A model generated the notes under the pieces. The model had not been told where the DNA came from. It searched no databases and saw nothing but the letters and a program-made list of their open reading frames with translations. DNA of 5,197 nucleotides from Octopus sinensis (lineage: Eukaryota), in assembly GCF_006345805.1 (NCBI RefSeq), contig NW_021830065.1, positions 1 through 5,197 on the forward strand. The letters run 5' to 3'. The position numbers and the translations under genes were made by a program. Shown here piece after piece: positions 88-5,197 of the stretch. Position 1 is the first letter of the stretch. Each line of letters opens with the position of its first letter.

Positions 88-620
88 CCACTACAACCAC
101 AACCTACACCACCACCACCACCGCCGATACTGCTACCACAACCACCACCACCAATACCACCACCACCACCACTATCACCACCAATACCACCACCACCACC
201 ACCACCACCACAACCTACACCACCACCACAACCTACACCACCACCGCAACCTACACCACCACCACCATCACCACCACCACCACCACCACCACCACCACCA
301 CCAAAACCACCACCAACACAACCATCACCACCACCACCCCACACCACCACCACCACAACCTACACCACCACCACAACCTACACCACCACCGCAACCTACA
401 CCAACACCACCATCACCACCACCACCACCACCACCACCACCACCACCACCAAAACCACCACCAACACAACCATCACCACCACCACCACCACCACCACCAC
501 CACAACCTACACTGCCACCACAACCTACACCACCACCATAACCTACACCACCACCACCACCACCAAAACCACCACTACCACCACCACAGCCCCCCACCGC
601 CGCCACCGATACTGCTACCA
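88..620. repeat. (CCA)n-based low-complexity tract with 18 bp subunits (CCACAACCTACACCACCA) and a ~145-148 bp higher-order repeat
   Basis: Almost pure CCA triplets. Triplets of CAACCTACAC-type units start at 211, 356 and 503 (the third set is more diverged). CCAAAACCACCACCAACACAACCATCACC occurs at 301 and 449. Confidence 0.95.
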
Positions 621-878
621 TCATAATCATTGCGAAGACATTCACCATCACTGCTACCACCACAGCTACCATCGTCACCGCTACCTTTTCTATCACTACA
701 ACCACCACCACCGTCACCACGACCATTGCTACCTACTATATTACTATCATCATCATCACCACAATCAGCAACTCTACCGTCACCATACCACCAACATCAC
801 AACTACCACCAAGATAAATCTCCACCACAGCCACCAACACAACTACCTTCGCTACCATTATCACAACTAAAACTCAAT

Positions 879-965
879 ACCACCACCACCACCACCACCA
901 CCACCACCACCACCACCACCACCACCACCACCGCCACCACCACCACTACCACCGCCGCCGCCGCC
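879..965. repeat. (ACC)n microsatellite grading into (GCC)n
   Basis: 18 perfect ACC units at 879-932, then interrupted ACC units and GCC units. Confidence 0.95.
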
Positions 966-1056
966 ATTATCATCATCATCATCATCCTCTTCTATCATCC
1001 TCATCATCACCATTACCATCACCATCATCATCATCATCACCACCACCACCACTACC

Positions 1057-1087
<31 letters not shown>

Positions 1088-1192
1088 ACATCGTCATTGT
1101 CTTCATCGTTGTCATCATCATCATCATCATCATCATCATCGTCATTGTCGTCATCATCATCATCGTCATTGTCGTCAACATCATCATTATCA
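966..1192. repeat. Compound (CAT)n/(CAC)n microsatellite with CATCGTCATTGTC variant units
   Basis: CAT and CAC runs read directly; CATCGTCATTGTC recurs three times between about 1089 and 1173. Confidence 0.92.
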
Positions 1193-1708: not shown

Positions 1709-1819
1709 GGTTTCGAATTTTGGTACAAGGGCAGAAAATTTTGAGAGAGAGGATAGATAAACCGATTGTATCGACCCCGGTGCACAATTGATACTTATTT
1801 TATCGATCACCTGAAAGGA
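1709..1819 (-). mobile_element. Family-B SINE, 3' half (central domain plus tail) of a split copy
   Basis: CGATTGTATCGACCCCGGTGCACAATTGATACTTATTTTATCGATCACCTGAAAGGA (1763-1819) aligns with 4119-4173 of the complete copy. The extension to 1709 is based on a recalled alternative tail. Confidence 0.75.
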
Positions 1820-1885
1820 ACCCGTATTTCGTTTATGTAACCACAATATACTACAAAATATGTTAAACGCTTTTGATCTTCATAT

Positions 1886-2292
1886 CTCATTTACTCATTT
1901 ACTTGTTTCAGCCATTTGACTGTGGCCATGCTGGAGCACCGCCTTTAGTCGAGCAAATCGACCCCAGGACTTATTCTTTGTAAGCCTAGTACTTATTCTA
2001 TCGGTCTCTTTTGCCGAACCGCTAAGTTACGGGGACGTAAGCACACCAGCATCGGTTGTCAAGCGATGTTGGGGGAGGGATAAACACAACACACAAACAT
2101 ACACATATATATATATATATACATATATACGACGGGCTTCTTTCAGTTTCCGTCTACCAAAACCACTCACAAGGCTTTGGTCGGCCCGAGGCTATAGTAG
2201 AAGATACTTGCCCAAGGTGCCACGCAGTGGGACTGAACCCGGAACCATGTGGTTCGTAAGCAAGCTACTTACCACACAACCACTCCTACGCC
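1886..2292 (-). mobile_element. Family-A tRNA-derived SINE, full length (copy A1)
   Basis: The minus strand starts GGCGTAGGAGTGGTTGTGTGGTAAG (A box) and carries GGTTCAGTCCC (B box), CORE-like ACCTTGGGCAAGT, an internal TA/TG microsatellite and a (GTAAATGA)2 tail. 1942-2000 is the exact reverse complement of 3301-3359 (59/59). Confidence 0.93.
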
Positions 2293-2302
2293 TATATATA
2301 TA

Positions 2303-2510
2303 TATAAATCAGTACTCTGTTCTACTGTGTTAGCAGTGCTATTTCATCACAACTGAAGGTTGTCTCCACAGACTTTTTATAGAAATCATAGCCAGCACTT
2401 TTTAAGGTTATCATTGTTTGGCATAATTTCTATAGAATATCTGTAGAGACAACCTTAACAAATGATGTAAAGTGCACTGCTAACACAGGAGAACACTGTA
2501 TTGATTTATA
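2303..2510. repeat. Long inverted repeat (fold-back), ~95 bp arms and ~17 nt spacer
   Basis: 2303-2339 vs reverse complement of 2474-2510 is 33/37 identical; 2356-2386 vs reverse complement of 2426-2456 is 27/31 identical. Confidence 0.93.
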
Positions 2511-3008
2511 AAAACGTTCAATATACTTTGTGGCATACTATAGTTGCATAACAAAGTATTGAGTGCCCATAATTCATAGATATATACGTAACAGCTTCAA
2601 CGAATGTGTTTACAGTAATCACTCTCCATATCGCGGTTCACCCATCACGACCTCAGTACATGGCGGATTTTTCTGGCTAATATATATAAATTATATAAAT
2701 TTATATCGCGGATTCCTCAGCATATCGCGGGTTTCTGCGGCCGATAGATATTTATATATATTTTTTTTTTCATATTTTAATTATTTCTGTGATAAAATAA
2801 GCATTTTCACGCCTAAAAATTAATAAATAAAAATACTGTACAGTACTGTGTAACACATTAATTAAAGTATATTAAAAGAAAAAACGTAGTGTACCGTAGA
2901 TGAGTAAACAAAGAATCGCACATAGTGTATGGAAAACGAAACCCGTGAGGTGAATGTGTGGTGTTGTTTTGCATTTATAATAAAATAAATATATACAAGT
3001 TATAATAA

Positions 3009-3422
3009 TAGGAGTGGCTGTGTGGTAAGTAGCTTGTTTACCAACCACATGGTTTCAGGTTCAGTCCCACTGCGTGGCACCTTGGGCAAGTGTCTTCTAC
3101 TATAGCCTCAGGCAGACCAAAGCCATGTAAGTGGATTTGGTAGACGGAAACTGAAAGAAGGCCGTCCTATATATGTGTATATATGTATGTATGTGTGTGT
3201 ATGTGTTTGTGTGTCTGTATTTGTCCCCGCAACATCGCTTGACAACCGATGCTGGTGTGTTTACGTCGCCGTAACATAGCGGTTCGGTAAAAGAGACCGT
3301 TAGAATAAGTACTAGGCTTACAAAGAATAAGTCCTGGGGTCGATTTGCTCGACTAAAGGTGGTGTTCCAGCATGGCCACAGTAAATGACTGAAACAAGTA
3401 AAAGAGTAAAAGGGTAAAGAGA
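3009..3422 (+). mobile_element. Family-A tRNA-derived SINE, near full length (copy A2), nested in the MITE
   Basis: A box TGGCTGTGTGG at 3015-3025, B box GGTTCAGTCCC at 3058-3068, ACCTTGGGCAAGT at 3079-3091, TA/TG tract at about 3168-3214, GTAAAAGA-type tail at 3398-3420. Colinear with the reverse complement of 1886-2292. Confidence 0.93.
3015..3068 (+). promoter_or_regulatory. Internal RNA polymerase III type 2 promoter (A and B boxes) of SINE A2
   Basis: TGGCTGTGTGG and GGTTCAGTCCC with tRNA-like spacing (32 nt between boxes). Confidence 0.7.
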
Positions 3423-3567
3423 ATACAATAATGTTTCTATCGCGGTGGGTTTTTGGAACGTAACAACCGCGATAATCGAGGATTACTGCAATATGTAAAT
3501 TGGTATATCTAATGATGTTACACAGCTGTACTTAGCAGCTATTTAAGCAATGTGTTCGCGGATGATT

Positions 3568-3636
3568 ACGGGGTTAGATGAGTGCAGATGAAGGAGCAAA
3601 AAATCCTGAAACATGGTATATACGCCCATTACCCGT
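3568..3636 (+). ncRNA. Degenerate type I hammerhead ribozyme motif
   Basis: Stem I ATGAGTG 3578-3584 / CGCCCAT 3623-3629, extended by ACGGG 3568-3572 / CCCGT 3632-3636. Core CAGATGA at 3585-3591 (canonical CUGAUGA). Stem II AGGA/TCCT around an 8 nt loop. GAAA at 3608-3611. Stem III ACAT/ATAT with one mismatch. Putative cleavage after A3622. Confidence 0.55.
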
Positions 3637-3756
3637 TTTTTTCATTTTTGATCTAATTGTTTGCATTTGATGTCTTGGATATGAAAAGTCGTAACAAAAT
3701 CAGTGCTGGTTACAAATTTTATAGAAAATCTGTAGAGATGACCTTAACACGTGATA

Positions 3757-3868
3757 TATTTTATCGATTCCGAAAGGATTAAAGGCAAAGTCGATCTCAG
3801 CGGCATTTAAATTCAGAGCATTAGGACGGACGAAATGGTGTGCTAACGGTTCTGCCGGGTCGGCACTT
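3757..3868 (-). mobile_element. Family-B SINE, 5' half (tRNA-like head plus start of central domain) of the split copy
   Basis: Aligns with 4152-4281 (CGAAAGGAT-AAAGGCAAAGTC...GACGAAAT...TGCTA-CG-TTCTGCC), with a ~19 nt internal deletion after GAAAT. Confidence 0.85.
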
Positions 3869-3903
3869 TAATGTGCTTCTTTAAATTGAAGGCAAATTCT
3901 TCT

Positions 3904-4056: not shown

Positions 4057-4281
4057 TTATTGCCCACCAAGGGGCTAAACATAGATGGGACAAACAAGGA
4101 CAGACAAACGGATTAAATCGATTATATCGATCCCAGTGCATAACTGGTACTTATTTAATCGACCCCGAAAGGATGAAAGGCAAAGTCTACCTCGGCGGAA
4201 TTTGAACTCAGAACGTAGCGGCAGACGAAATACTGCTAAGCATTTCGCTCGGCATGCTACCGTTTCTGCCAGCTCGCCGCC
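4057..4281 (-). mobile_element. Family-B tRNA-derived SINE, complete, with target-site duplication
   Basis: Flanked by the direct repeat CTGAGATTCT (4047-4056 and 4281-4290). Minus-strand A box TGGCAGAAACGG (4260-4271), B box GAGTTCAAATTCC (4197-4209), central GCCTTTCATCCTTTCGGGGTCGATTAAATAAGTACCAG domain, and a 3' end at CAATAAAG. Confidence 0.92.
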
Positions 4282-4403: not shown

Positions 4404-4849
4404 TCTTTTATCATTTTTATCTTTCACTCGTTTGCAGCGGCCATACAGGGACACCATCTTGAAAAATTTTTAGTCGAAAGAATTGACCCCCAGTATTCTG
4501 ATTTTTGTTTTCTTTTTTTGTTTTTTGTAAAGCTTAGTACTTACTCTGTCAGTGTCTTTTCCAGAACCACTAAGTTACGGGGACGTAAATACAACAACAC
4601 CGGTTGTCAAGAGGTGATGGGGGCAAATTCAGACACAAAGGCACACACACACGCACGCACACACACACACACAAACACACACATACACACATACATTATG
4701 GGTCTCTTACAGTTTTCTATCTACGAAATGCACTATAGTCCGAGGTTATAGCAGAAGACACTGTCCAAGGCGCCATGCAGTGAGACTGAACCCCGAACCA
4801 TGTGTGGTCGGGAAGCAAGCTCCTTTACCATACAGCCATACCTGCGTCT
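4404..4849 (-). mobile_element. Family-A SINE, older and more diverged full-length copy (A3)
   Basis: Colinear with 1886-2292: CTAAGTTACGGGGACGTAA, CGGTTGTCAAG, a (CA)n tract at about 4642-4695, CCAAGG-GCCA-GCAGTG-GACTGAACCC-GAACCATGTG. Has an extra T-rich insert at about 4500-4526 and small deletions. Confidence 0.88.
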
Positions 4850-4947
4850 ATAATGTTTCTAAAAACCACTCACCTATCTCACACCGTCTTAAGGAAACGT
4901 TGCCCGTGGGTTTGCTAATCGTAGCAAAAACAAAAAAAAAAAAAAAA

Positions 4948-5050: not shown

Positions 5051-5197
5051 AACGCCAATATCCTTATTGCCGTTACCACCATGACCACCATGACAACAAC
5101 AACAACAACAACAACGCGACCACCACTTCACCCTCATCTACAGTCATCCACTACCACCACGACGACCACTACCACCACAACCACCAACAACAACAAC
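5031..5197. repeat. (CAA)n/(CAC)n low-complexity tract running off the window end
   Basis: A perfect CAA run at about 5094-5115 and degenerate ACC/AAC triplets to the end. Confidence 0.88.

What the first reader, a model, noticed from the sequence alone, without database searches (positions are those of the whole stretch)
1820..3756. Hidden Penelope-like/retrozyme-type element: inverted arm, ~411 nt repeat unit and hammerhead
Seen: after excising SINE A1 (1886-2292) and the MITE with SINE A2 (2613-3488), ~0.65 kb remains. It consists of an inverted ~150 bp arm (1821-1874 plus 2303-2398), then a unit starting near 2416 whose beginning recurs in direct orientation at about 3703-3755 (period 411 nt once the MITE and one TSD are removed). 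The unit contains a hammerhead-like motif and has no ORF. Established: Penelope-like elements carry hammerheads in pseudo-LTRs that occur in partial tandem and inverted arrangements, and animal non-LTR retrozymes are non-coding units of a few hundred nt with type I hammerheads. Inference: this is a non-autonomous ribozyme-bearing retroelement, possibly an uncatalogued family.
Basis: partly seen in the sequence, partly recalled or inferred. Interest (0 to 1): 0.8.

Follow-up and report, generated by a model that had tools for sequence, protein, structure and literature searches.

The report
Hammerhead-bearing parasite of Penelope retrotransposons
This is an old, broken copy of a non-coding 406-base repeat family that carries a hammerhead self-cutting RNA motif and is scattered through this animal genome in the pattern left by Penelope-like retrotransposons, so it likely spread by borrowing their enzymes; this kind of element (a retrozyme) is known from other animals.

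Summary
Confirmed. The remnant at 1820-3758 belongs to a dispersed non-coding family with at least about 1,000 segments in this genome. Copies run straight across the MITE site in 15 of 29 loci, the unit is 406-407 nt (411 here), and the family carries a complete type I hammerhead. This copy's hammerhead is broken (core U4 to A, helix mismatches). The family leaves Penelope-like (PLE) insertion marks: variable 5' truncation, outward-facing arms, long target duplications in some loci (about 22 bp here), and two fixed 3' ends, about 170 and 285 nt after the hammerhead. In 20 of 36 two-armed loci one arm has each end; none strictly has the same end twice. No copy ends at the ribozyme cut or adjoins a PLE reading frame, and no autonomous partner was found. 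The family's typical sequence folds far better than shuffles (z about -9), and repeats within one insertion share variants, which fits a circular or re-read RNA template. Cutting, circles and expression are untested. Verdict: a new member of a known kind (animal non-LTR retrozyme, i.e. non-autonomous PLE), with an unusually long ~115-nt tail. The scan has noted such elements in other genomes.

The parts
1758..1819 (+). Left part of an older host repeat into which the element inserted (not part of the element)
   Evidence: 81% identical to 4114-4173 of an uninterrupted copy in the window
1797..1819 (+). Left copy of the target-site duplication (12 nt exact, about 22 nt in all); its last ~16 nt also resemble the family's long 3' end, so the boundary is ambiguous
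1820..1874 (-). Inverted arm, outer part, ending at the long 3' end (unit +210 to about +282); carries the tail
1886..2292 (-). SINE A1, later insertion into the arm beside a TA run
   Evidence: 91% identical to SINE A2 in inverted orientation; the arm is contiguous across it in unit coordinates
2303..2403 (-). Inverted arm, inner part (unit +108 to +210), 5'-truncated at +108
2410..2612 (+). Direct arm, first part (unit +111 to +312), 5'-truncated at +111
2613..3488 (.). MITE with 8-nt terminal inverted repeats, inserted at a TA (right copy reads CA); later insertion
   Evidence: sequence; empty site in 15 of 29 loci; raised depth
3009..3410 (+). SINE A2 nested in the MITE
3491..3758 (+). Direct arm, second part (unit +313 to +406, then +1 to +170), ending at the short 3' end
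3577..3630 (+). Type I hammerhead remnant: core 3585-3591 and 3608-3611, predicted cut between 3622 and 3623; differs from the family at 3581, 3586 (U4), 3603, 3612, 3617
3757..3778 (+). Right copy of the target-site duplication
3757..3872 (+). Right part of the host repeat (not part of the element)
   Evidence: 3757-3836 is 79% identical to 4152-4231; extent to 3872 from L006

Best explanation
This is a decayed insertion of a non-coding 406-nt hammerhead-bearing repeat family that was likely copied into new sites by the reverse transcriptase and endonuclease of an autonomous Penelope-like element. Shown: the unit, its hammerhead, the two fixed 3' ends, 5' truncation, outward-facing arms, one long and one short end per two-armed insertion, and the absence of coding sequence. 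Inferred mechanism: the PLE protein binds the structured unit RNA, nicks both strands of a target about 10-22 nt apart, and primes cDNA from each nick at one of two internal start sites (+170 on one side, +285 on the other). The cDNAs run 5'-wards, often through the hammerhead and into a second pass of the unit, stop at variable points and are joined head to head; repair gives the target duplication. The template is likely a self-cleaved, circularised monomer or an uncleaved head-to-tail transcript; the data do not separate these. The hammerhead is predicted to cut best as a dimer. This copy was later hit by two SINEs and a MITE and is predicted to be inert.
For: 3' ends of 90 segments: 40 at +151..185, 23 at +271..292, none at the cut site; 5' starts spread over the whole unit. 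Sample drawn only by a 16-nt motif at the long end: 21 of 29 stop there, 8 continue in the unit, none continues into other shared sequence. Two-armed loci: 20 long+short, 0 long+long, 0 short+short, 16 with one other end, of 36 (14 of 23 in the set not selected for the long end). Target duplications at the ends of 6 of 20 two-armed loci against 4.6% by chance. These match PLE marks (partial tandems, inverted 5'-truncated copy, tail on one end; 10.1101/2021.04.23.441226 passages) and the two internal RT start sites and two-strand extension shown in vitro for an anole PLE (PMC11167929). Hammerhead core letters are the commonest at every position in 59 copies; 8-bp helix I, 4-5-bp helix II, self-complementary helix III (-8.4 kcal/mol with a second copy). 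Column-majority unit folds with z -8 to -9; two other repeats treated alike give +0.2 to -2.4. Repeats within one insertion share subfamily letters in 123 of 151 (tandem) and 109 of 141 (inverted) comparisons against 57% between loci. The genome holds many GIY-YIG/RT PLEs.
Against: No autonomous partner was found: no similarity of the unit to 30 GIY-YIG loci, 20 longer PLE regions or 19 loci of an older PLE family. The tail is ~115 nt, against 30-40 bp described for PLEs. Target duplications were not above chance in one-orientation loci (3 of 37) and are missing in 14 of 20 two-armed loci. Core conservation (0.93) is only slightly above what base make-up predicts (0.89), only 24 of 55 copies keep the core and 9 of 55 keep core and helices. 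No convincing compensatory changes in the predicted fold: the excess of pair-keeping double changes is what transitions and CpG decay give, and only 1 of 27 linked column pairs is a predicted base pair. Raw difference between inverted arms (19.6%) is no lower than between loci (19.2%). The antisense strand also folds well (z -6.6). The first two searches favoured copies covering the query, which biases end counts.
Confidence: 0.8

Rival explanations
1. The copies are heavily 5'-truncated ends of an extinct autonomous PLE whose pseudo-LTR region happened to be a short tandem; there was never a separate non-autonomous element.
For: All marks are PLE marks; PLE copies are usually 5'-truncated and most of their hammerheads are found away from full elements (PMC4209133). 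The searches rank by likeness to the unit, so rare coding-linked copies could be missed.
Against: 31 of 90 segments exceed one unit and wrap back into the unit, up to 1.9 units; upstream flanks of 70 segments share no non-unit sequence at the junction apart from one duplicated locus; no PLE ORF adjoins in 98 loci or stretches examined, apart from one unrelated neighbour 680 nt downstream.
Confidence: 0.12
2. A classical tandem retrozyme or satellite that spread by rolling-circle copying or unequal crossing-over, with PLE enzymes playing no part and inverted arms arising later.
For: Size (406 nt), low GC (35%), type I hammerhead and strong self-pairing fit the animal retrozyme description (PMC7229834).
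Against: No array longer than about 2 units among 83 loci; ends sit at two internal sites and not at the cut; arms pair long with short; the window's two arms lie inside one target duplication.
Confidence: 0.06
3. A DNA-transposon derivative or fold-back element; the hammerhead is a chance match and the strong fold reflects DNA palindromes.
For: Both strands fold well; no Rfam hammerhead hit; no covariation shown.
Against: No fixed terminal inverted repeats; 46 of 83 loci have one orientation only; variable 5' truncation; all 11 core positions and three helices are in correct order and spacing.
Confidence: 0.02

Closest known systems
Animal non-LTR retrozymes (Cervera and de la Pena 2020, PMC7229834; Li, Clavereau and Pollet 2026, 10.64898/2026.07.22.740005)
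   Same: Non-coding unit within the 150-450-bp range, GC under 50%, one type I hammerhead per unit, predicted highly self-paired RNA, duplications longer than 4 bp where present, co-existence with autonomous PLEs; mussel units are 350-390 bp.
   Different: Seen only as truncated monomers to about 2 units, not as arrays; frequent outward-facing arms; two fixed internal 3' ends; circular RNA and cleavage not shown; no related pseudo-LTR found.
Endonuclease-bearing Penelope-like elements (Penelope/Poseidon, Neptune, Nematis, Hydra), including PAc of the green anole (PMC11167929; Craig et al. 10.1101/2021.04.23.441226)
   Same: Partial tandems, inverted 5'-truncated copy, tail on one end only, two internal 3' ends downstream of a hammerhead, variable target duplications, hammerhead with a short self-complementary helix III.
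   Different: No RT or GIY-YIG reading frame; tail about 115 nt instead of 30-40; helix I is 8 bp and extends into a long predicted rod, longer than in the minimal PLE hammerheads (4-5 bp).
Non-autonomous Chlamys PLEs such as MRC1 of Chlamydomonas (Craig et al., passages)
   Same: Non-coding elements that form pseudo-LTRs and head-to-tail insertions using PLE enzymes.
   Different: [quoted passage not shown]

Membership tests
Animal non-LTR retrozyme | Non-coding unit of 150-450 bp, GC under 50% | tested here: met
   406 nt, 35% GC; longest frame 65 codons, no likeness to 4 PLE ORFs
Animal non-LTR retrozyme | Type I hammerhead in each unit | tested here: met
   core and helices I-III in the family; two per insertion in L003/L076 and L077; broken in the window copy
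Animal non-LTR retrozyme | Head-to-tail repeats (dimers to multimers) | tested here: inconclusive
   31 of 90 segments exceed one unit, maximum 1.9-2.1 units; no trimers or arrays among 83 loci; no genome-wide census
Animal non-LTR retrozyme | Highly self-paired monomer RNA | tested here: met
   predicted only: z -8 to -9 for the column-majority unit, -1.6 to -2.7 for one natural copy; no covariation support
Animal non-LTR retrozyme | Self-cleavage and accumulation as linear and circular monomers | not testable with these tools
   needs bench work; no RNA holder listed
Animal non-LTR retrozyme | No LTR, primer-binding site or polypurine tract; duplications longer than 4 bp when present | tested here: met
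   no tRNA or LTR-type ends seen; 8-22-nt duplications in 6 of 20 two-armed loci
Autonomous Penelope-like element | ORF with RT and GIY-YIG endonuclease | tested here: not met
Penelope-like insertion pattern (non-autonomous) | 5' truncation, partial tandem, inverted 5'-truncated copy | tested here: met
Penelope-like insertion pattern (non-autonomous) | Tail on one end only (two fixed 3' ends) | tested here: met
   length ~115 nt, not 30-40
Penelope-like insertion pattern (non-autonomous) | Sequence shared with the pseudo-LTR of an autonomous family | tested here: inconclusive
   none in 69 PLE loci or stretches from at least 4 families, out of 5,029 first-look GIY-YIG candidates
Entry in Dfam or Repbase | Match to a catalogued consensus | not testable with these tools
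   libraries not available

The most novel reading that the evidence does not exclude
A fossil record of how an animal retrozyme integrates: a circular, ribozyme-made 406-nt RNA was read by a Penelope reverse transcriptase from two internal start sites 115 nt apart, one for each nicked strand of the target, so that one event wrote both arms; the one-long-one-short rule and the shared variants of successive passes would be direct genomic evidence joining the retrozyme circle model to PLE two-site priming.
Probability: 0.35. Interest if true: 0.65.

Novelty: new member of a known kind. Interest (0 to 1): 0.42.

Why it matters
Animal retrozymes have been proposed to ride on Penelope-like elements from co-occurrence and sequence kinship, and the 2026 preprint says the mechanism remains to be elucidated. 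This family shows the PLE integration signature itself (two fixed internal 3' ends, one per side, inverted arms, long duplications) in a purely non-coding hammerhead unit, and names the two predicted start sites to test. It would also add a likely cephalopod example (organism inferred, not shown). The family is old and this copy is broken, so it matters as mechanistic evidence and for repeat annotation, not as an active element or a host function.

Tried and rejected
Rfam scans gave no hammerhead hit for the window or an intact copy; the MIR6140 hit at 2327-2486 (41 bits, cut-off 140) only reflects the two arms forming a hairpin. A genome search with RF00163 returned 7 hits, none similar to this unit. 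Partner search: GIY-YIG loci, 20 longer PLE regions and the PLE family beside L027 share nothing with the unit; L027's RT fragment is a chance neighbour. Expression: no RNA holder listed; both listed runs are contigs, and no joint skipping the SINE or MITE was among those shown. Covariation: a promising 262/350 pattern was not a predicted pair and was dropped; no robust support. L077's 2.1-unit length is doubtful because its first 49 nt are 48/49 identical to the next pass, so 1.9 units (L076) is the safe maximum. The idea of one master with two different units was not supported: passes within a locus mostly share the same subfamily letters. Look-up of earlier scan findings by sequence gave nothing. 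Literature: no held paper has both 'hammerhead ribozyme' and 'Octopus bimaculoides'; searches listed none describing this family; the 2020 retrozyme paper has no 'octopus' or 'cephalopod' in its main text. Supplements were not read; those of PMC7229834, PMC4209133 and the 2026 preprint (not held) could list cephalopod hammerheads.

Full report
The window is a whole 5,197-nt contig of a 2.7-Gb animal genome. I take it for an octopus from the recalled look of its SINEs and the genome size; no call shows this.

Observation. Self-comparison shows the two SINE copies (1890-2288 and 3009-3410, 91%, inverted), the hairpin formed by 2303-2510, and the recurrence of 2410-2469 at 3699-3758. The MITE has 8-nt terminal inverted repeats at 2613 and 3488 and sits at a TA. 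A genome search with 3491-3756 gave 1,738 first-look candidates and copies at 77-82% identity. In 15 of the 29 other loci fetched, the equivalent of 2612 joins that of 3491 with a gap of -2 to +1; the rest are 5'-truncated or interrupted there. In L003 two hammerheads lie 407 nt apart; the column-majority unit is 406 nt, 35% GC. A 16-nt motif has 202 exact matches against 2 for the control; 12 of 59 copies spanning it match exactly, which suggests at least about 1,000 such segments. Copies differ from the commonest letter by 12% on average (7.5-24.5%, 67 segments), so the family is old; no young copy was seen.

The insertion in the window. The flanks 1758-1819 and 3757-3836 match overlapping parts of an uninterrupted host repeat at 4114-4231, with 22 nt in common: a target duplication enclosing both arms. 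The left arm is the family on the minus strand (+108 to about +282, split by SINE A1); the right arm runs +111 to +406 and on to +170 (split by the MITE). Contigs of X1 bridge 2321-2461, 2441-2642 and 3451-3567, and one of X2 bridges 1560-1908, without other letters.

The hammerhead. In 59 segments from 49 of 50 loci found by BLAST (pattern-found loci left out), the commonest letters give helix I of 8 bp, CUGAUGA, helix II of 4-5 bp with a 6-nt loop, GAAA, a short self-complementary helix III and an AUA cut triplet. For an intact natural copy the active monomer fold lies 2 kcal/mol above the best fold and the helix III strand pairs with a second copy at -8.4 kcal/mol, as described for dimer-acting type I hammerheads (PMC4209133, first half read). 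The window copy has U4 to A and four other changes; its active fold scores about -1 against -13 kcal/mol. Core conservation is 0.93 against 0.89 expected; 24 of 55 copies keep the core and 9 of 55 also the helices: decay after insertion, with little sign of selection on the copies.

Insertion pattern. Of 90 segments in 56 loci and the window, 40 end at +151..185 and 23 at +271..292; none ends at the cut (+38/+39); 5' starts are spread; 31 exceed one unit. Alignments show both ends are sharp, the short one staggered over about 20 nt. These loci were chosen by likeness to queries ending at +170 and +219, so I drew a second sample by the long-end motif alone: of 30 loci 29 are the family, 21 stop at the motif, 8 go on in the unit and none in other shared sequence. 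Of 83 loci, 46 have one orientation, 36 have outward-facing arms and 1 fell below the score used; of the 36, 20 pair a long with a short end, 16 have one recognised end and one other, and none strictly has two alike (L026, 299/282, and L021 come close). Duplications scoring 8 or more lie at the ends of 6 of 20 two-armed and 3 of 37 one-orientation loci, against 4.6% for mismatched flanks. PLEs are described with partial tandems, an inverted 5'-truncated copy and a 30-40-bp tail on one end (10.1101/2021.04.23.441226, passages). For the anole element PAc the tail was shown to be the stretch between two internal RT start sites downstream of the hammerhead, both target strands are cut and extended, and hammerhead cleavage is not needed for insertion in vitro (PMC11167929, first half read). 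The family fits this layout with a longer tail.

Non-autonomy and partner. The unit has no frame over 65 codons. Four PLE ORFs of this genome (three with GIY-YIG, two of these with RT) hit only L027 among 58 loci and the window, only the same place among 10 longer stretches, and none of 30 further loci. That neighbour belongs to another old PLE family whose other 19 loci lack the unit. Upstream flanks of 70 segments share only other common repeats away from the junction. The unit matches none of 30 GIY-YIG loci or 20 longer PLE regions. The partner is therefore unidentified; only a small share of 5,029 candidates was seen.

Template. The family has linked subfamily variants (23 site pairs at p<0.005 among 16 sites). 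Successive passes in one insertion agree at those sites in 123 of 151 comparisons, inverted arms in 109 of 141, unrelated loci in 57%; non-majority letters are shared in 26%, 16% and 8.5%. So both arms and both passes likely came from one kind of template whose units were alike, as expected if a monomer circle is read more than once or units are regenerated each cycle; a homogeneous tandem transcript fits too, and later gene conversion could add to the signal. Against: raw difference between arms is not lower than between loci. The column-majority unit folds at -127 kcal/mol (z -8.4 and -9.4 in two runs; circle -120, z -8.1), antisense z -6.6, while the SINE and host repeat built alike give +0.2 to -2.4; helix I extends into a long rod closing the unit. 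Covariation does not confirm the fold. Expression could not be judged.

Comparison. Animal non-LTR retrozymes are 150-450-bp, low-GC tandem units with type I hammerheads, expressed as self-paired circles in coral, mussel and axolotl, with PLEs proposed as helpers (PMC7229834: passages, part 2 of 6, sections 14 and 17). A 2026 preprint links them to PLE pseudo-LTRs by distribution and phylogeny in vertebrates and leaves the mechanism open (parts 1-3 of 5). A cephalopod repeat survey mentions Penelope expansions but, in the passages seen, no such family (PMC8967140). Earlier notes of this scan describe a sea-squirt retrozyme and PLE-type non-coding units in other genomes; I did not test them and they came after my reading was set.

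Verdict. It works like a non-autonomous PLE and meets the sequence-level description of an animal retrozyme, while cleavage, circles and arrays are not shown. New member of a known kind; the ~115-nt tail and the one-long-one-short rule are the parts worth a specialist's look. Interest 0.42.

Noticed in passing
L186, L189-L192; L195-L204: A second, unrelated hammerhead-bearing repeat family (Rfam Hammerhead_1 hits over the cut-off), about 230 nt of shared sequence beside TA microsatellites, with inverted arms in several loci; 2,784 first-look candidates, a count inflated by the TA run in the query.
   Followed up: partly
L106-L108, L110: A young autonomous PLE family with two overlapping frames (479 and 781 codons), 1.3-kb pseudo-LTRs 100% identical in L107, and a hammerhead-like motif beginning UUGAUAA, like the U3-A8 variant described for schistosome PLEs.
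   Followed up: no
L111, L113, L034, L119: Further PLE families with their own hammerhead-like motifs; in L111 the motif lies on the strand opposite to the reading frame, upstream of it.
   Followed up: no
window 2403/2410; L156, L157, L176, L185: In several two-armed loci both arms are truncated at nearly the same place, +103 to +127, at the foot of a strong predicted hairpin: a possible preferred stop or joining site.
   Followed up: no
window 1804-1820: The target sequence at the left end resembles the family's long 3' end, a possible microhomology at priming, although PAc is reported to start without homology.
   Followed up: no
window 88-1192, 1433-1536, 5074-5197: Long CCA/CAT/CAA trinucleotide tracts flank the repeat-rich core; a third, older SINE copy lies at about 4518-4852.
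   Followed up: no
L023 and L024: Two loci 0.75 Mb apart on contig C2 are 99.6% identical including flanks: a recent segmental duplication or an assembly duplicate.
   Followed up: no
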